In this document: in pieces, positions 12,297 through 17,692 of the stretch | Layout: every line of letters starts with the position of its first letter | Numbering within the stretch: the first letter of the stretch is position 1 | Source: a virus | Lineage: Duplodnaviria; Caudoviricetes | Direction: 5' to 3' (one strand) | Virus record (IMG/VR): IMGVR_UViG_3300011400_000003 | Span: 1-60,337 of that record | Length of the DNA stretch: 60,337 bases | Translations under genes and position numbers: made by a program | The notes under the pieces: generated by a model | The model's database searches: none | Seen by the model: only the letters and a program-made list of their open reading frames with translations | What the model was told of the DNA's origin: nothing

Positions 12297-12544
12297 CCCG
12301 CTTGTTTGGCATGAGCAAGATCAGTCTTAACAACATAACCATCAACCATGCATTGTATGCCTAGAAAAGTAGTCGATGTCGTTGTCGATGACAAAATCCG
12401 GTCGATTTTTGTTTCGTAGAAACCCTTGTTCGTCGATTTCCCAATCTGGAAAGAGAGAAAACTCAACAACAACACCACGACCATCATCATAAACTTTGTG
12501 AATTTTTCCGATCGGCTTTTCGGCACGTTTATTCTCCTCTTCAA
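12287..12544 (-). CDS. Hypothetical membrane protein
   Basis: TM segment; competes with overlapping ORF 12342..12575. Confidence 0.4.
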   Translation of the reverse strand: MKRRINVPKSRSEKFTKFMMMVVVLLLSFLSFQIGKSTNKGFYETKIDRILSSTTTSTTFLGIQCMVDGYVVKTDLAHAKQAGCK

Positions 12545-12779
12545 TTATCTGAAAAGCTTTGTCAAGAGGCATCATGTAGCGACTCCAAACCTAGTTAATT
12601 ACGGTTCCTATCTTCACTCATGAGTTGTTCATTTGCGTGCAATTCACTAAAAGAATATCCCGAAACATCCGCTCCTGCATCTGCTGAGTGTCCGTAACAG
12701 AAAGGCTCGTCGTCGAAGCTTACAGCACAGACGCAGTCTGGCATTTCACAAATATGTACTTCGTTCATTATTCGCCCCC

Positions 12780-13082
12780 CTAAGGTCGCACACTGTTTAT
12801 GTACTCAATTACAGAATATAGTGCCTTCTCGTGATCTAAACCATCTCGTCGAAGATCTAGCAATGTTGTAATTAGATGGACATGATTGACGCTCAATTCC
12901 TCAGCAAACGCAACCATGGTGTCCACGTATAAATCAGTCTCAGTCTTCAGAGTGAGAGAACTTAGTTGTAAGAACCGACCGTTTTTGTGTTCAATTTCAG
13001 CTAACAATGAAAGTCTGCCTGTCGCAACGTCGTAGATTTTCCATGCATCTAGAAAAGCTTGACCTTTAGCGGAGAGTTCCAT
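12780..13082 (-). CDS. Hypothetical protein
   Basis: AAAGGA RBS; TAATG overlap. Confidence 0.6.
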   Translation of the reverse strand: MELSAKGQAFLDAWKIYDVATGRLSLLAEIEHKNGRFLQLSSLTLKTETDLYVDTMVAFAEELSVNHVHLITTLLDLRRDGLDHEKALYSVIEYINSVRP

Positions 13083-13258
13083 TATTTAGTTCCTTTCGAA
13101 CAATTATCAAGATGTCTCTGCTTGTTTCCACAAGGGCAGTTCTTATCCATACAAGTTGCGCAACCGTTACAACGAAGTTTTGGTTCAGTAAAAATATGGA
13201 ATAGTTTATCGAAATCCGGTTCATCATTTGTTAGATTTTCGAGACCGTCAATTCCCAT
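13082..13258 (-). CDS. Small Cys-rich protein
   Basis: Start MGIDG after GAAGGAG RBS; the longer ORF-track version runs through the RNA element. Confidence 0.55.
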   Translation of the reverse strand: MGIDGLENLTNDEPDFDKLFHIFTEPKLRCNGCATCMDKNCPCGNKQRHLDNCSKGTK

Positions 13259-13287
13259 TAGTTCTCCTTCTAATTGTAAATATGAAA

Positions 13288-13370
13288 GGTTGTGGGTTAG
13301 GGTCTGCAGCCCCAACAGGAAGTCGTACCCCAGGCTTTTCACACCGTAGCACCCCGCTGTCCCCACAACC
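13288..13370 (-). ncRNA. Three-way-junction RNA element, copy A
   Basis: GGUUGUGGG-GACAGC...GUUG-GGG..CCC-UAA-CCCACAACC. Confidence 0.7.
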
Positions 13371-13384
13371 ATATATGGTTCTAC

Positions 13385-13813
13385 TTAAGCAGCAAGCTTG
13401 TTCATGACTGTGGACAAAGAGACCCCGAAGTGCTTAGCAATTTCCGCATTGGTGTATCCCATGCGCTTCATTTTCTTGAGTTCTTTGATCTCTTGCTCGT
13501 CCAGAATTACTCGTGCTTTACGAGCAGCAATCCGCTTCTTTGCTGTCTTGCTTTTCAGTTGTGTCGTGTTGTTATTTATTTGATCAGGTGTGAATGCCTG
13601 AACAACGACGCTAGAGTCCTGAAGCTTGACCCGAACGATCAAGTCTCGCTTGCTGGCTTCAGAATATACCTTGTACATGAAGCCACCAAGACCAATGTGA
13701 AAGTCAGAGTCTTTGGTGATCTTCCACACACTACCGTCAAGCCACTGACCCCAGGGGTACTGAGCCTCAGACTCTTTTTCGTCTTTCGGAAATTCACGCA
13801 AACGACTAGCCAT
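13385..13813 (-). CDS. HTH DNA-binding protein
   Basis: YPWGQWLDG N-domain; C-terminal HTH GYTNAEIAKHFGVSLSTV. Confidence 0.75.
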   Translation of the reverse strand: MASRLREFPKDEKESEAQYPWGQWLDGSVWKITKDSDFHIGLGGFMYKVYSEASKRDLIVRVKLQDSSVVVQAFTPDQINNNTTQLKSKTAKKRIAARKARVILDEQEIKELKKMKRMGYTNAEIAKHFGVSLSTVMNKLAA

Positions 13814-14005
13814 TATTATGTTCCTTTCAATTGTGGTTAGCTAACAACGAAGGGCTGTGAGTAATCATCGAGAATAATTAAGGTGAGCGCAGGAGTAAAT
13901 CCAGCCCTTAATGAAACTCTAGAAGTATTTCAGCGTACGCCCCTCCAGTAAGTTCCTTAGGCTTACCTTCTATAACGTACATCCATACTGTCCTCACAGC
14001 ACCAG

Positions 14006-14360
14006 TGGACCTGGGGGGAATCGAACCCCCGTCCAGAACTCCTTTAACTGCTCGTTTACTGCAATAGCCACTGGAACCGTGGCCGCTCTCACGCTCCACC
14101 ACCTTCTTTTTCTGCGGAGAATAAAGAAGGAAACGCATTACTCTTTCCTTACTTAGCCGTTAGTTAATAGGGTGGACCAACCCCAGACGTGGCTACTACT
14201 ACGCAGCAACCAGTTGAGCGTCAGCGCAAAGCGCCTCGTACTCAGCGTCGATGTCACCGATGTTGGTGTCATTTAGTTTGGTTCCGTGTTTTAACGTCAC
14301 TTCGGAGATGACGTGCAGAAGAAACAATCTCCAGTAGATCTGTCGAATCCTATCAGGCCC
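14006..14360 (-). ncRNA. ssrA: tmRNA (355 nt); tag ORF 14199..14270 encodes (A)DTNIGDIDAEYEALCADAQLVAA
   Basis: 5' GGGCCUGAUAGGAUUCGAC; 3' GGGGGUUCGAUUCCCCCCAGGUCCA; G3:U70 Ala identity pair; UAAAU before the resume codon; tag ends LVAA followed by three UAG. Confidence 0.95.
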
Positions 14361-14452
14361 AAATATCTACTTGCGCCTCAAATGCACGAGGCCAAGAAGT
14401 CCAGCAATTGTAATCACAACGACAGCAACAATTCCAATAATTTTAGTGTTCA

Positions 14453-14773
14453 TTATTCCTCAATTCTATGAAATATTACTCCGTCTATATTAAATACAAG
14501 ATTGAATTCTGTCATCTTACTTGGGTCGCCAATTCCTCCGAGACCGAAATCAAGAGAACCATCCCCACGGCTTTCATTCAAAAGCCAACCAGAAATAGCA
14601 CCCTCAACCGTTCGAGGTAAACCAAGAGCATCATATATTTCGTTTAAAAATACATGACCTCTAGAACGTAACATATGATTAAAGTAATTCTCATGTGCTC
14701 GAAGAAAATTCAAGTTCATTTCAGAATTGTCACTCCAAAGTTCGTTGTGTTCATCAAACACACTGGGTTTCAT
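14453..14773 (-). CDS. Stand-alone C-terminal DUF6353-like domain protein
   Basis: GHVFLNEIYDALGL...GW...FNIDG aligns with the C-terminus of 24713..25615. Confidence 0.7.
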   Translation of the reverse strand: MKPSVFDEHNELWSDNSEMNLNFLRAHENYFNHMLRSRGHVFLNEIYDALGLPRTVEGAISGWLLNESRGDGSLDFGLGGIGDPSKMTEFNLVFNIDGVIFHRIEE

Positions 14774-14808
14774 TACCCGCTCCTTCTAATTGTAAATATG
14801 ATTGATGG

Positions 14809-14912
14809 TTGTGGGTTAGGTGTCTAGAACACCAACTTCTCAAGCTCCCCTACCTACCGACACAGTCAGTGGATCAAACGGTTTAGTGTTTATCTTGAAG
14901 CTGTCCCCACAA
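14809..14912 (-). ncRNA. Three-way-junction RNA element, copy B
   Basis: UUGUGGG-GACAGC...GUU-GGUGU..ACACC-UAA-CCCACAA. Confidence 0.7.
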
Positions 14913-14919
14913 ATATCAA

Positions 14920-15087
14920 CTAACCTTCGTCTTGATTTCCTTGCCCGGAATTCGCTGTATCGGTAACCATACCGCTGTCAGTTTCCTGACCAGAAGAAGG
15001 CTCCGTTTCTTCCGTGCGCTCCGGAGTGGCCTGATCCTGGTCTTGCTGATCGTTCTGCTGTTCGACCTCGTTGGGGTCACGTTCCAT
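14920..15087 (-). CDS. Small acidic disordered protein (55 aa)
   Basis: MERDPNEVEQQNDQQDQD...; GAGGA RBS; below the ORF track cutoff. Confidence 0.55.
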   Translation of the reverse strand: MERDPNEVEQQNDQQDQDQATPERTEETEPSSGQETDSGMVTDTANSGQGNQDEG

Positions 15088-15127
15088 TTACTTGTTCCTC
15101 TCAAAAATATAGCCGATGTTGACTTGC

Positions 15128-15394
15128 TTAGTCGTCGTGGTCTGCGTTGTCTGCAATGGTTGTGAACCACAAACCCCATCGCTTCAGGGTGTCTGGATCA
15201 CCGGAACGAAGAAGCTTTGCGTCCTCTTCGAACTTCTCAACACGATCAGGATGCTCGTGTTCCACCGCAGCGAAATATTCAGCAATGTGTGCGGCACGCT
15301 CAATCGATCCACCATTACTTTGAATAGCTTCTGTAACTCGATGACCTGTGATCGTAAGCTTACTACCAAGATCTCGAAGAGTTGTTGCGTTCAC
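15128..15394 (-). CDS. Hypothetical protein
   Basis: GAAGGAG RBS, GTG start. Confidence 0.65.
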   Translation of the reverse strand: MNATTLRDLGSKLTITGHRVTEAIQSNGGSIERAAHIAEYFAAVEHEHPDRVEKFEEDAKLLRSGDPDTLKRWGLWFTTIADNADHDD

Positions 15395-15422
15395 TTTTCT
15401 CCTTCGTTGAAATATGATTCGT

Positions 15423-15493
15423 GTTATAGGGAGTTAGGCTAGACTTGCCAACACTGAACCCCTTCGGCGGCGCAATGCTGTCCTCCCTATAAC
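15423..15493 (-). ncRNA. Three-way-junction RNA element, copy C
   Basis: GUUAUAGGGAG-GACAGC...GUU-GGC..GCC-UAA-CUCCCUAUAAC. Confidence 0.7.
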
Positions 15494-15547
15494 CCTGGCT
15501 CATTACAAGCCCTACTTCATGTGATGTCCAATCTCTCAAAGTCTAGG

Positions 15548-15757
15548 TTAGTCAAATTTAAAGTTGGGGCCCATCGGTGTCATCCCCCTATCATAAGTTT
15601 TATACTCTTTAGAAGCGCATGAGTTATGGTCCATGCGCCGGGTTGAAACCCGATCCTCTAATTTAAATATACTTCGACATGTGAGTGCAACTGTGAAACC
15701 CACGGGCATTTCACCGATAAAGGCTGCATGGGCATTTTTGATTTTAACCGGAGCCAT
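15548..15757 (-). CDS. Hypothetical protein
   Basis: AGGAG RBS. Confidence 0.5.
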   Translation of the reverse strand: MAPVKIKNAHAAFIGEMPVGFTVALTCRSIFKLEDRVSTRRMDHNSCASKEYKTYDRGMTPMGPNFKFD

Positions 15758-15884
15758 TGCACCACTCCTAATCTAAAAATACCGTTTGTCGAAGAACAGC
15801 ATATTTAAACCTATGAAGATCGCGCCAAGACCCTAGTTACCACATTAACTATGCTCGTAGAGAATAAGGATCATTTCAATCCTC

Positions 15885-16280
15885 CTAGTTTTTGTGGTTC
15901 TCCGCCCACTCGAGAATGGAGTCGAACTCGTCGTCATCGATCTCACCTTCACCCGTCGTCTCCAATCGAATGATGGCAAGCTTGATGACTTCCAAGACTT
16001 CGTCTTTGGTCCGTCCAGGAGAGTCGTTGAAAGCGGGAATGGAGTGGTACTGCCGTCCGTATCGTTCTCCGATGATCTGAAGAACGACTTCCCGAGCACC
16101 TTTCTGAGCGTCGGTCAGTCCGTGCTCGTTGGAATTGCAATATCCGAACAAGGCGCCCTCCAAGCAGACGTAGTACTTGCCGTCAGAACCTTCAGTGCTC
16201 CAATCGCCTTGGGTCCAGCCCTTCTCGACCCGCTTGTATGCCGTTCGAAGCACCTTGATAGGGGTGCCGGCTTTACTCAT
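15885..16280 (-). CDS. DUF6197-like protein
   Basis: GWTQG, CLEGAL, FNDSPGRTKDEV motifs typical of this actinobacterial family (from recall). Confidence 0.65.
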   Translation of the reverse strand: MSKAGTPIKVLRTAYKRVEKGWTQGDWSTEGSDGKYYVCLEGALFGYCNSNEHGLTDAQKGAREVVLQIIGERYGRQYHSIPAFNDSPGRTKDEVLEVIKLAIIRLETTGEGEIDDDEFDSILEWAENHKN

Positions 16281-16451
16281 TAGTTACCCCTTTCGTGGGT
16301 TCGGGAGGAACAAACAGCTCGGGTTCTGTCTCGTAAAGCTTTGAGATGAAGCCGCAAATATCTTTCTGTTCCTCAGTAATGTTTTCAGGATCTACCACGT
16401 TTCCGTCAAGATCTCTAAAAACTACTTGCATGCTTCATCTCCTTAGAAGGC

Positions 16452-16537
16452 GGGGGTTAGACCAACCAAACCTGTCCGGTTCATTAGTTAGTCAACAGAG
16501 TCAGATGTGACCCTAGTCACGAGTCTGCTGTCCCCCC
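16452..16537 (-). ncRNA. Three-way-junction RNA element, copy D
   Basis: GGGGG-GACAGC...GUU-GACUAACUAA..UUGGUUGGUC-UAA-CCCCC. Confidence 0.7.
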
Positions 16538-16541
16538 ATGA

Positions 16542-16904
16542 CTAACGGATTAAGTATTTGTATTCTGAACACTCCACAATTATTGGAATGTTCTTCGCCG
16601 CTTTAGTAGGCTCAAAACGTAAAGCGGTTTGCTTGTTCTTGCTCATTGGGTGTTTGTCGACCTTCGGTTTGAGGTCTTTCAACACGCTGCAAGCTTTCTT
16701 AACGTCTTTGTCTCTAACCGACACATACGCCGTTGTTGAACGAATCTTTCCGTTCCCTAAAATGTCGCTGGGTCCACCTTGGCACGAGTAGAAAGTCTTG
16801 ATACCCGCCTCCCAAAGGCGCAAACAAACAGGAAGCACGTAAATATCAATCTCTACGTACTTGTCTTTCATGTAAACCGTTGGATGGAGGATTCTTTGTC
16901 TCAT
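16542..16904 (-). CDS. Hypothetical protein with ID...L...GIKT..SCQG motif
   Basis: Motif resembles the TYW3-like N-terminus; weak. Confidence 0.55.
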   Translation of the reverse strand: MRQRILHPTVYMKDKYVEIDIYVLPVCLRLWEAGIKTFYSCQGGPSDILGNGKIRSTTAYVSVRDKDVKKACSVLKDLKPKVDKHPMSKNKQTALRFEPTKAAKNIPIIVECSEYKYLIR

Positions 16905-16974
16905 TAGGCTCCATTCAAATGGACAGAAAATAAGAAAGAGGTACCTGATAAATCAGATATTGTCCTCTCTCCTA

Positions 16975-16998
16975 TTACAAGCGTTGTATATCTTGCGA
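16975..16998 (-). promoter_or_regulatory. Phage-specific promoter followed by leader hairpin 16927..16973
   Basis: TCGCAAGATATACAACGCTTGTAA. Confidence 0.75.
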
Positions 16999-17323
16999 AT
17001 CAGACAGCATGCTGGAGTTTCCAAATATTAACGTCTTCGGTGTACTTTATACCGTCTGATACGCCCCATAACACTGTGGCCGTATTGTCCTCATTGATTT
17101 GTTCAATTATCCCCGTCGGGGATTTTTGCCCTAAACGATTTACTCTATCACCCAAACAAATCATGATGCTCTCTGCTCAAATATGTTTTGCCGAGTTGGT
17201 TCAGTAGTTTCTTCATCAACAATAATGACTACTTGACAAATATGTTGATCGTGTGGACCTATCTGAGTGCATTTAATTTCTACGTCACCTTTACCGAAAT
17301 CAACCACGGTCCAAATATCACAG

Positions 17324-17692
17324 TCAACTAGCATTCTCCTCAGCTCCTACAATCTTCCCTTCTTCGGGGAAGTTGTCTGGCGATTCATTTTTATCAGCAT
17401 TCAAATTATCTAAGAACTCTTTCATCTCATCTGTAATTGCAACAAATTGAGATTTAAAAATAAATCCTGGAAAACAACGAACGTTCTTACCCATCTTCGT
17501 CATCCAAAAACCAGGTGTCACTTTGTAAACATTTGGAACCATACGCCGATCAACCAAAATATACTTTGATCCGTCTTCTTCTTCGCAGACAGTTCCAATG
17601 AATTCAGCTGCATCCCAGAGGTTCTCAGCCGTGATTTCAACGGCCTCTACTCGAAACGGATTGCGCACATAGTTCTTGTATTCCAAATCCAC
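17324..17692 (-). CDS. Conserved phage protein (Y.R.P..VEA...G.W....F...F family)
   Basis: YVRNPFRVEAVEI...PGFW...IFKSQF pattern. Confidence 0.6.
   Translation of the reverse strand: MDLEYKNYVRNPFRVEAVEITAENLWDAAEFIGTVCEEEDGSKYILVDRRMVPNVYKVTPGFWMTKMGKNVRCFPGFIFKSQFVAITDEMKEFLDNLNADKNESPDNFPEEGKIVGAEENAS

What the first reader, a model, noticed from the sequence alone, without database searches (positions are those of the whole stretch)
13288..16537. Four-copy covarying three-way-junction RNA family that I cannot match to a known class
Seen: four intergenic elements (13288-13370, 14809-14912, 15423-15493, 16452-16537) share P1-G-GACAGC-[variable P2]-GUU-[G..P3..C]-UAA-C-P1'. P1 differs but always pairs (GGUUGUGGG, UUGUGGG, GUUAUAGGGAG, GGGGG). 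P2 and P3 vary in length and sequence while junction nucleotides are invariant, which is the signature of a protein- or ligand-binding or catalytic core. Each copy sits ~5-20 nt upstream of a strong RBS in the operon that carries the tmRNA. Copies A and B also share a 22-bp downstream repeat (13264-13285 = 14780-14801). The core does not fit the hammerhead, twister, pistol or HDV consensus as I recall them. Inference: a new cis-regulatory, processing or antitermination element, a ribozyme, or a decoy RNA.
Basis: partly seen in the sequence, partly recalled or inferred. Interest (0 to 1): 0.85.

Follow-up and report, generated by a model that had tools for sequence, protein, structure and literature searches.

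The report
Uncatalogued three-armed phage leader RNA
Four small three-armed RNA folds between genes of this uncultured phage belong to an uncatalogued RNA family that in other phages usually sits before selfish DNA-cutting-enzyme genes and covers their ribosome landing site, but these four copies keep the conserved core without that covering loop, so what they do here is still open.

Summary
Four minus-strand elements (13288-13370, 14809-14912, 15423-15493, 16452-16537) share P1-GAC-[AGC..P2..GUU]-[G..P3..C]-UAA-P1'. AGC pairs with GUU as the base of P2.

Covariance model R2 was built without copies A, B and D. It finds all four at E 4e-7 to 4e-6 and nothing else convincing in the window.

Rfam 15 has no match, even at E up to 10.

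The fold is a real family. I found 18 further distinct core-matching copies in unrelated viral and metagenome contigs, plus two variant-core copies. Of the paired cells, 97.4% form standard pairs against 70.2% in shuffles.

Outside the window, the P3 loop is complementary to the Shine-Dalgarno or start codon in 12 of 16 copies with a predicted start. Pfam finds nuclease domains in 5 of 10 downstream proteins tested.

The window copies differ. None of the four has loop-to-start-site complementarity, their Shine-Dalgarno sequences are predicted open, and the genes behind them are small unknown ORFs.

My reading is a cis-acting leader RNA whose mechanism here is only inferred.

Earlier notes of this scan describe what seems to be a similar leader on other DNA. 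I could not check that it is the same family.

The parts
13288..13370 (-). Copy A of the three-way-junction RNA. P1 is 9 bp. Core GGACAGC lies at 13362-13356 and CUAAC at 13300-13296. P2 is expanded to 45 nt. P3 is GGGGCUGCAGACCC.
   Evidence: R2 scores it 35.3 bits, E 3.7e-7, and it was not in the training set.
14809..14912 (-). Copy B. P1 is 7 bp. P2 is expanded to 72 nt. P3 is GGUGUUCUAGACACC. Its 3' half is paralogous to that of copy A.
   Evidence: R2 scores it 32.6 bits, E 2.1e-6, and it was not in the training set.
15423..15493 (-). Copy C. P1 is 11 bp. P2 is 30 nt. P3 is GGCAAGUCUAGCC.
   Evidence: MFE equals the drawn structure, z -4.0, and 0 of 200 shuffles fold as well; 33.4 bits. 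This copy is in the training set of R2.
16452..16537 (-). Copy D. P1 is 5 bp, or 6 bp with a U-G pair. P2 is 36 nt. P3 is expanded to 34 nt.
   Evidence: R2 scores it 31.7 bits, E 3.5e-6, and it was not in the training set.
13264..13285 (-). A 22-nt module between copy A and its gene: UCAUAUUUACAAUUAGAAGGAG, including the Shine-Dalgarno sequence. It is identical to the module after copy B. Its first half resembles the upstream box of the phage's own repeated promoter.
14780..14801 (-). The same 22-nt module after copy B.
15399..15417 (-). A related module after copy C: UCAUAUUUCAACGAAGGAG.
   Evidence: read from the sequence.
15539..15546 (-). CUAGACUU, lying 2 nt after the stop codon of the upstream ORF. 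It is a perfect 8-nt complement of the P3 loop of copy C and lies 46-53 nt upstream of P1.
   Evidence: duplex -9.4 kcal/mol, loop-shuffle p 0.028. Seen for one copy only.
13082..13258 (-). ORF behind copy A, 58 aa and Cys-rich, with no Pfam or PHROG match.
14453..14773 (-). ORF behind copy B, 106 aa. It matches only the C-terminal part of DUF6353.
   Evidence: E 7.7e-18, profile positions 160-247 of 253; tblastn hits in 67 of 160 related loci.
15128..15394 (-). ORF behind copy C, 88 aa with a GUG start, no family match.
16273..16431 (-). ORF behind copy D, 52 aa, no family match. It overlaps the start of a DUF6197 gene (15885-16280).

Best explanation
The four elements are RNA structures made on the coding (minus) strand. 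They belong to an uncatalogued family of phage leader RNAs. Each is a compact three-way junction with a fixed core: a G-C pair closing P1, unpaired GAC, a P2 base of A-U, G.U and C-G, a P3 that follows directly and opens with G-C, then unpaired UAA.

In the family at large, the loop of P3 base-pairs with the Shine-Dalgarno sequence or start codon of the gene just downstream. That gene is often a homing-endonuclease-type nuclease. The fold therefore acts as a built-in brake on translation.

In this phage the core has been kept four times in one operon of a hypervariable accessory region, each time just after an upstream stop codon (3, 3, 14 and 54 nt) and 7-23 nt before a strong Shine-Dalgarno sequence. 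The loop-to-start-site pairing is missing and the downstream genes are small ORFs of unknown function.

My best guess for these four copies is that they still act in cis on the polycistronic mRNA as rigid intercistronic leaders. They would set how much the downstream ORF is translated. A ribosome terminating on the upstream ORF must melt P1. Without upstream translation, the folded junction stands directly before the start site.

Shown here: the fold, its family, its strand, its position, and the loop-to-start-site covariation in relatives.

Inferred, not shown: any effect on translation in this phage, and the coupling mechanism.
For: 1. Real and local. All four copies are detected by model R2, which was trained without A, B and D.

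2. Family.
- 18 other distinct core-matching copies turned up in unrelated contigs, plus variant-core copies L418 and L290b.
- On the 23 distinct rows of alignment A6, 97.4% of paired cells are standard pairs against 70.2% in shuffles.
- 113 cells change on both sides against 33.7 in shuffles.
- 12 of 16 pairs show two-sided changes. Sliding the partner by 1-3 columns drops pairing to 38-54%.

3. Strand. The G.U pair in P2 is present in 23 of 23 rows. It would be an A-C mismatch on the other strand. The minus strand also gives lower folding energy for all four copies.

4. Function in relatives.
- The P3 loop has a perfect complement of 6 nt or more within -25..+8 of the predicted start in 12 of 16 non-window copies (loop-shuffle p 0.0005-0.033).
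- This pairing covaries: CCUGCAU/AUGCAGG in L243 and L268 against CCUACAU/AUGUAGG in L318.

5. Downstream genes in relatives: GIY-YIG in L360, L403, L411 and L564, and DUF559 in L279.

6. Maintained in this lineage.
- One related phage (L097 record, primase 72% identical) has a homologous copy about 4.9 kb downstream of the primase gene; the window copies lie 3.2-6.4 kb downstream of theirs. Its third P2 pair is changed on both sides, C-G to U-A.
- A and B share their 3' halves but differ in P3 in a way that keeps pairing.

7. Position. The upstream stop codon is within 21 nt of P1 in 11 of 19 copies with a measurable upstream ORF.
Against: - 0 of 4 window copies has 5 nt or more of P3-loop complementarity to the start region. 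RNAduplex of the loops against 90 nt on either side gives nothing beyond shuffles except for copy C upstream.
- The Shine-Dalgarno sequences are predicted mostly unpaired: 1.00, 0.61, 0.74 and 0.80. The mechanism that explains the family does not apply here as such.
- The genes behind the window copies have no nuclease signature: Pfam up to E 10 for three of them (the fourth matches only DUF6353), and blastx of the whole window against 14 proteins from behind other copies.
- Only 1 of 50 related phage records has a copy. The element is dispensable for this phage group.
- No RNA data exist. No experiment bears on translation.
- All database members were fetched with patterns that fix the core letters. 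The core's invariance outside the window is therefore partly built into the search.
- A6 is fitted to the model, which favours its structure.
Confidence: 0.5

Rival explanations
1. Orphan leaders. The four copies are leftovers of mobile nuclease cassettes whose nuclease gene and matching start region were replaced by recombination. They have no present function.
For: - No nuclease gene or remnant is present.
- There is no loop-to-start-site pairing.
- The region is hypervariable: 18 of 25 ORFs between 10.9 and 19.2 kb have no tblastn hit in 160 related loci.
- A and B carry an identical 22-nt start module that looks like a swapped-in cassette end resembling the phage's promoter box.
- Only 1 of 50 relatives has a copy.
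- B has lost the two outer P1 pairs that A has.
Against: - All four keep every core letter and uninterrupted P1, P2 and P3 helices, although the rest of their sequence is unalike.
- The copy in a related phage carries a two-sided change in a core pair.
- P3 of A and B differs while keeping pairing.
Confidence: 0.25
2. The conserved junction is itself the active part. It could be a binding site for a host protein, a metal or a small ligand, or a self-cleaving ribozyme. The loop-to-start-site pairing seen elsewhere would then be an add-on.
For: - About 16 positions are fixed, including an invariant G.U pair. That is as much as in small ribozymes and aptamers; this comparison is recalled.
- The window copies keep the core although the masking loop is gone.
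- The core is shared by leaders of unrelated genes in unrelated phages.
- A Pistol ribozyme (44.2 bits, cut-off 34.5) lies about 830 nt upstream of the copy in the related phage.
Against: - No Rfam ribozyme or riboswitch model matches any copy at E up to 10.
- No other ribozyme lies near 16 further members.
- There are no cleavage or binding data.
- The genes served are too diverse for a metabolite sensor.
- The covarying antisense-type pairing already accounts for most family members.
Confidence: 0.13
3. A DNA-level element: a promoter part, a recombination site for cassette shuffling, or a nuclease target.
For: - The module after A, B and C resembles the upstream box of the phage's 15 repeated promoters.
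- A weak sigma-70-like match (9 of 12) runs from the P3 loop of B to that module.
- The elements bound gene cassettes in a shuffled region.
Against: - The helices covary while their sequences differ, which DNA-binding sites do not do.
- The invariant G.U pair works on one strand only.
- The promoter-like module lacks the TATAAT half.
- The P1 arms differ between copies, unlike transposon ends.
Confidence: 0.08
4. An intrinsic terminator or attenuator between cistrons.
For: P1 of copy A is followed by UUUCAUAUUU.
Against: - None of the 9 terminator-like sites of the scan overlaps a copy.
- Copies B, C and D have no U-run after P1.
- The closing helix of a three-way junction is not the usual terminator form.
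Confidence: 0.04

Closest known systems
int-alpA RNA motif (Rfam RF02996)
   Same: It is a small three-way junction just upstream of a gene start. In three of the ten real examples I fetched (L507, L510, L511), read by eye, the P3 loop (..UCGUCA..) is complementary to GACGA sites downstream, one of them at the Shine-Dalgarno sequence. The working principle looks the same as in most members of the present family.
   Different: - The junction differs: roughly P1-UA-P2-GAAAA-P3-CU-P1', against P1-GAC-P2-P3-UAA-P1' here with no P2/P3 linker.
- RF02996 does not match the window at E up to 10, nor six other members.
- My model R2 does not find any of the ten int-alpA examples.
- int-alpA was found in 14 of 121 genomes of the family of an Enterobacter genome. 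The present family was found only in viral and metagenome contigs.
RBS-sequestering RNA structures of T-even phage homing-endonuclease genes (I-TevI, I-TevII, I-TevIII, segB, mobE)
   Same: These are cis RNA structures that hide the ribosome-binding site of mobile nuclease genes (PMC2988022, passages of section 12 read). The same review mentions seg43(25) of Aeromonas phage 25, where a very stable hairpin lies just upstream of the RBS without covering it. That resembles the four window copies.
   Different: Those are simple, gene-specific hairpins without a shared sequence core. Here a conserved three-way junction with fixed junction letters recurs before unrelated genes in unrelated phages, and the masking is done by a loop (a pseudoknot), not by a stem.
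UAA/GAN internal-loop motif (recalled from the structural literature; not confirmed by any search)
   Same: The two unpaired junction strands read 5'-GAC-3' and 5'-UAA-3' across from each other next to P1. This is the letter pattern I recall for that motif.
   Different: Here the strands sit in a three-way junction, not in an internal loop. I could not test the 3D fold. My paper search for the name found nothing.
Small self-cleaving ribozymes with three-way junctions (hammerhead, twister-sister)
   Same: Similar size, a three-way junction, conserved junction letters, variable helices, and occurrence in phages.
   Different: No Rfam ribozyme model matches, the core letters are different, and there is no evidence of cleavage.

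Membership tests
   4 of 4 window copies.
   4 of 4 copies, 7-23 nt from P1' to AAGGAG.
   0 of 4 window copies against 12 of 16 other copies. The Shine-Dalgarno sequences are predicted open.
   Window: no family match for the ORFs behind A, C and D up to E 10, and only DUF6353 for the ORF behind B. No blastx similarity to proteins from behind other copies. Others: a Pfam nuclease domain in 5 of 10 tested, so this is a tendency, not a rule.
int-alpA (RF02996) | Score at or above the Rfam gathering cut-off (35.8 bits) | tested here: not met
   No match at E up to 10 in the window or in other members.
int-alpA (RF02996) | Junction layout with a GAAAA linker between P2 and P3 | tested here: not met
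   Real examples have this linker. The window copies have no P2/P3 linker. R2 misses all ten examples.
Known self-cleaving ribozymes in Rfam 15 (hammerhead, twister, twister-sister, pistol, hatchet, HDV-like and others) | Match to the family covariance model | tested here: not met
   window; compact members; 16 member loci at gathering threshold.
Known self-cleaving ribozymes in Rfam 15 (hammerhead, twister, twister-sister, pistol, hatchet, HDV-like and others) | Site-specific self-cleavage | not testable with these tools
   This needs an in vitro transcription and cleavage assay.
Intrinsic terminator | G+C-rich hairpin followed directly by a U-run | tested here: not met
   None of the 9 terminator-like sites overlaps a copy.
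T-even type RBS-sequestering hairpin | The RBS lies inside a stable stem | tested here: not met
   Unpaired probability of the Shine-Dalgarno sequence is 0.61-1.00 in folds of element plus start region.

The most novel reading that the evidence does not exclude
The conserved junction (GAC/UAA plus the A-U, G.U, C-G and G-C closing pairs) is an autonomous functional module: a binding pocket for a host factor or ligand, or a new catalytic core. Mobile phage genes carry it with them. The four window copies would then show its function stripped of the start-site-masking loop.
Probability: 0.15. Interest if true: 0.85.

Novelty: new variant of a known kind. Interest (0 to 1): 0.6.

Why it matters
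RNA structures that hide the ribosome-binding site of selfish nuclease genes are known from T-even phages, but only as one-off hairpins. Here the same small junction fold, with fixed core letters and covarying arms, recurs before unrelated genes in unrelated uncultured phages, and it is in no catalogue. That makes it a portable regulatory module, a candidate for a new Rfam family, and a possible compact part for tuning translation.

This window adds two things. It holds the highest copy number I saw, four in one operon. Its copies also keep the core but have lost the masking loop and the nuclease gene. This separates the conserved core from the only mechanism so far inferred for the family, and so poses a testable question: what does the core do on its own?

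Tried and rejected
- **Rfam.** No family matches the elements at the gathering threshold. None matches at E up to 10 on 13200-16600, on a compact member or on five member loci.

- **int-alpA.**
  - It does not hit the window.
  - I looked for an example near intA/alpA of E. coli K-12 and found none.
  - Four genomes reached through loci had none.
  - A draw of 121 genomes gave 14 with a match.
  - Their sequences have a different junction, and R2 does not find them.

- **Relatives.**
  - The search for related loci with the DUF6197 protein found no relative.
  - With the HTH protein it found 7 distant loci without the element.
  - blastn of 12500-17500 against the phage collection found no match.
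  - blastn against my loci found only short pieces.
  - The strict motif scan of 171 loci plus the window found no true copy outside the window.

- **Pattern scans.**
  - Most hits were chance. In one search, 11 of 20 stretches were one coding sequence, and only L174 looked real.
  - The metagenome scan gave 117 stretches, of which 3 passed my structural filter.
  - The genome-contig scan with a P2-only pattern, meant as an unbiased test of the junction letters and a way to find hosts, gave 83 stretches. None had GGAC before the pattern. No host was learned, and the unbiased test failed for lack of true hits.

- **Rows set aside as chance.** My filter passed these, but they are long, lie in coding sequence or pair poorly: L009-L011, L107, L180/L181, L184, L221, L253.

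- **Expression.** No RNA holder is listed. Contigs of four DNA runs, labelled freshwater sediment metagenome, laid on 12800-17000 showed no differences and no joints. There was therefore no natural variation to read.

- **Palindromic P3 loops.** CUGCAG in A and UCUAGA in B might suggest kissing dimers. I rejected this as a signal because both hexamers are common in the genome (29 each, against 9.3 and 18.7 expected).

- **Loop pairing with flanks in the window.** Nothing beyond shuffles, except copy C upstream.

- **Nuclease remnants.** Pfam up to E 10 found nothing for seven small ORFs of the region, three of them behind copies. blastx of the window against 14 proteins from behind other copies gave only E above 3.

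- **Papers.** Four terms on homing endonuclease plus three-way junction: 0 papers. 'int-alpA': 2 papers, seen in the listing only. 'UAA GAN' plus 'internal loop': 0 papers. Weinberg 2017 (PMC5737381) has no 'int-alpA' in its main text. Its supplements are closed and may hold the motif's drawing.

- **Limits of my own models.** R1 and R2 derive from sequences fetched with core-fixing patterns.

Full report
**What the window is.** The window is a whole IMG/VR virus record of 60,337 bases, rated 100% complete by CheckV. It encodes a terminase, a portal, a Sipho_Gp37-like protein and a D5-type primase/helicase. Of the 25 ORFs of 200 aa or more, 24 lie on the minus strand. The finding must therefore be read on the minus strand.

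**The observation.** Read this way, the four stretches have the stated architecture.
- One correction: AGC and GUU are not junction letters. They pair with each other (A-U, G.U, C-G) as the base of P2.
- The junction is therefore P1, unpaired GAC, P2, P3 directly (opening with G-C), unpaired UAA, then P1'.
- The core pattern occurs four times on the minus strand and never on the plus strand. It also never occurs when read backwards.
- The 22-bp repeat after A and B is exact.
- The tmRNA lies between A and B.

**Not in the catalogue.** Rfam 15 gives only the tmRNA and a tRNA-Leu at gathering thresholds. Nothing lies on the elements at E up to 10. The same holds for compact relatives.

**A wider family.**
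- None of 80 loci around the primase gene of related phages held the strict motif. Nor did 80 terminase loci or 7 HTH loci.
- Pattern scans of IMG/VR did find copies in unrelated contigs. Most pattern hits were chance, so I filtered them by helix pairing. The first filter run gave 22 hits against 4 on reversed sequences.
- A metagenome scan added 3 copies from 117 stretches.
- This gives 18 distinct non-window copies. They lie in L174, L195, L196 (also in L225), L243 (identical in 10 more contigs), L268, L273, L279, L290, L318, L326, L360, L365, L403, L408, L411, L544, L564 and L578. Many are only 50-63 nt long.

**The models.**
- I built model R1 from four near-equal-length copies and used it to align ten copies.
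- From that alignment I built R2. R2 contains only copy C of the window.
- R2 finds A, C, B and D at 35.3-31.7 bits and nothing else above 13.2 bits in the window.
- On the final alignment A6 (24 rows, 23 distinct), 97.4% of paired cells are standard pairs against 70.2% in shuffles. 113 cells change on both sides against 33.7. Sliding the partners lowers pairing to 38-54%.
- Caveats: the sequences were fetched with patterns that fix the core, they were filtered for pairing, and A6 is fitted to the model.
- Two copies found by the models rather than by pattern show that the core can vary.
  - L418 lies in a related phage and has AGU..AUU instead of AGC..GUU, a two-sided change.
  - A second copy in L290 has AGG..CUU and AUUA.

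**What the family does elsewhere.**
- In the L243 group the P3 loop CCUGCAU is the exact complement of AUGCAGG, which overlaps the Shine-Dalgarno sequence. In L318 both sides have changed, to CCUACAU and AUGUAGG.
- Across the 16 non-window copies with a predicted start, 12 have a perfect complement of 6 nt or more between the P3 loop and positions -25..+8 (loop-shuffle p 0.0005-0.033). Four do not: L174, L196, L326 and L360.
- In a subgroup (L279, L360, L365, L403 and L564), the P2 loop is also complementary to the loop of a hairpin further downstream, with covariation (read from the sequences).
- Downstream proteins:

| Locus | Pfam result |
|---|---|
| L360, L403, L411, L564 | GIY-YIG |
| L279 | DUF559 |
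| L365 | DUF723 plus a treble-clef finger |
| L326 | phage DsbA |
| L243 | HTH only |
| L268, L290 | nothing |

- In L174 the element lies between the major tail protein and tape-measure genes.
- The family is thus mostly, but not only, a leader of mobile nuclease genes, and its likely action there is to mask the start site.
- This parallels the hairpins described for T-even homing-endonuclease genes (PMC2988022, passages of section 12 read).

**How the window copies differ.**
- None of the four has 5 nt or more of P3-loop complementarity to its start region.
- Duplex energies against 90 nt on either side do not beat shuffles. The exception is copy C, whose loop matches 8 nt just after the upstream stop codon.
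- Folding each element with its start region leaves the Shine-Dalgarno sequence mostly unpaired.
- The ORFs behind A, C and D have no Pfam match up to E 10, and the one behind B matches only DUF6353. None resembles the proteins found behind other copies.
- P2 is expanded to 30-72 nt here, against 15-23 nt in compact copies.
- The surrounding 11-17 kb is hypervariable: 18 of 25 ORFs have no hit in 160 related loci.
- Only 1 of 50 related records has a copy.
- After A, B and C comes a module whose first half resembles the upstream box of the phage's repeated promoter (TCGCATATTTTACA..TATAAT), but it lacks the TATAAT half.

**Reading.**
- The copies are RNA on the coding strand. The G.U pair is invariant in 23 of 23 rows.
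- They have been kept as a structure in this phage lineage, given the two-sided change in L418 and the pairing-preserving differences between A and B.
- I therefore prefer a present cis function over pure relics. The masking mechanism cannot simply be transferred to them.
- The upstream stop codon is 3, 3, 14 and 54 nt from P1 here. It is within 21 nt in 11 of 19 measurable copies overall. A terminating ribosome would thus have to open P1. This makes a coupling or insulating role plausible, but it is inference only.

**Alternatives.**
- Terminator: no terminator-like site lies on any copy.
- Ribozyme or aptamer: no model match. The only hint is a Pistol ribozyme about 830 nt upstream of the L418 copy. 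None was found near 16 other members.
- DNA-level element: it does not fit the covariation or the one-strand G.U pair.

**Comparison with int-alpA.**
- Earlier notes of this scan describe a three-armed, start-site-masking leader before phage nucleases, and some call it a divergent relative of int-alpA. I cannot see their sequences. Look-ups by sequence found nothing, so identity with my family is unproven.
- I fetched ten true int-alpA examples. They share the principle: three arms, and in three examples read by eye a loop complementary to downstream GACGA sites.
- Their junction is different, and neither model finds the other family.

**Verdict.**
- It is a new variant of a known kind, namely start-site-controlling leaders of mobile phage genes.
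- The four local copies are unusual in lacking the masking loop.

Noticed in passing
L418:624-673 (+), in the record of related-phage locus L097: A Pistol self-cleaving ribozyme (RF02679, 44.2 bits, cut-off 34.5) lies about 830 nt upstream of that phage's copy of the three-way junction. The window itself has no Pistol match.
   Followed up: partly
L418:1144-1718 (+): About 575 nt have no plus-strand ORF of 40 aa or more apart from one 70-aa TTG ORF (1497-1709) that I take as spurious. The stretch is G+C-rich with long complementary arms (for example GUGGGGUCUC..GAGACCCGCCCCAC after the junction copy). It may hold further unassigned structured RNA.
   Followed up: no
The modules after copies A, B and C carry only the first box (TCATATTTACA / TCATATTTCAA).
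   Followed up: partly
window 14453-14773 (-): The gene behind copy B matches only the C-terminal third of DUF6353. tblastn finds relatives in 67 of 160 related loci. In the three loci whose DNA hits I saw (L093, L107, L110), the match lies upstream of the primase gene. It looks like a truncated extra copy of a conserved gene.
   Followed up: partly
window 15539-15546 (-): An 8-nt perfect complement of the P3 loop of copy C lies 2 nt after the stop codon of the upstream ORF. This would be an upstream rather than downstream pseudoknot partner. It is seen for this copy only.
   Followed up: partly
L279, L360, L365, L403, L564 (downstream of their elements): In this subgroup the P2 loop (6-7 nt) is the exact complement of the loop of a hairpin that lies between the junction and the start codon. 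It covaries: UUGCCG/CGGCAA, UUCCCG/CGGGAA, UUCCAG/CUGGAA, CUACUAA/UUAGUAG. This is a second long-range contact besides the pairing of the P3 loop with the start site.
   Followed up: partly
L290:6027-6094 (+): A second, divergent copy in one contig has a variant core (AGG..CUU, AUUA). Its hairpin loop GUACCGC is complementary to GCGGUAC just before the start codon.
   Followed up: partly
L273 (minus strand, 2595-2656): This copy lies inside a phage tRNA gene cluster (Asn, Lys, Phe, Trp). It is followed by a tRNA-like fragment that ARAGORN does not call. No ORF follows it.
   Followed up: no
L507, L510, L511 (int-alpA examples): In these int-alpA RNAs the P3 loop (..UCGUCA..) is complementary to two GACGA sites downstream, the second at the Shine-Dalgarno sequence. 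This suggests that int-alpA is itself a start-site-masking leader.
   Followed up: partly
whole window: Some 6-bp palindromes are absent (GAGCTC, CCGCGG, GCGCGC: 0 found, 4.6-9.3 expected), while CTGCAG is threefold over-represented (29 against 9.3). This may reflect avoidance of restriction sites.
   Followed up: no
window 14368-14454 (-): By eye, a short ORF for a hydrophobic peptide of about 28 aa lies between the DUF6353-like gene and the tmRNA gene. My one translation, of 14368-14454, came out with an internal stop, so the frame is not confirmed.
   Followed up: no
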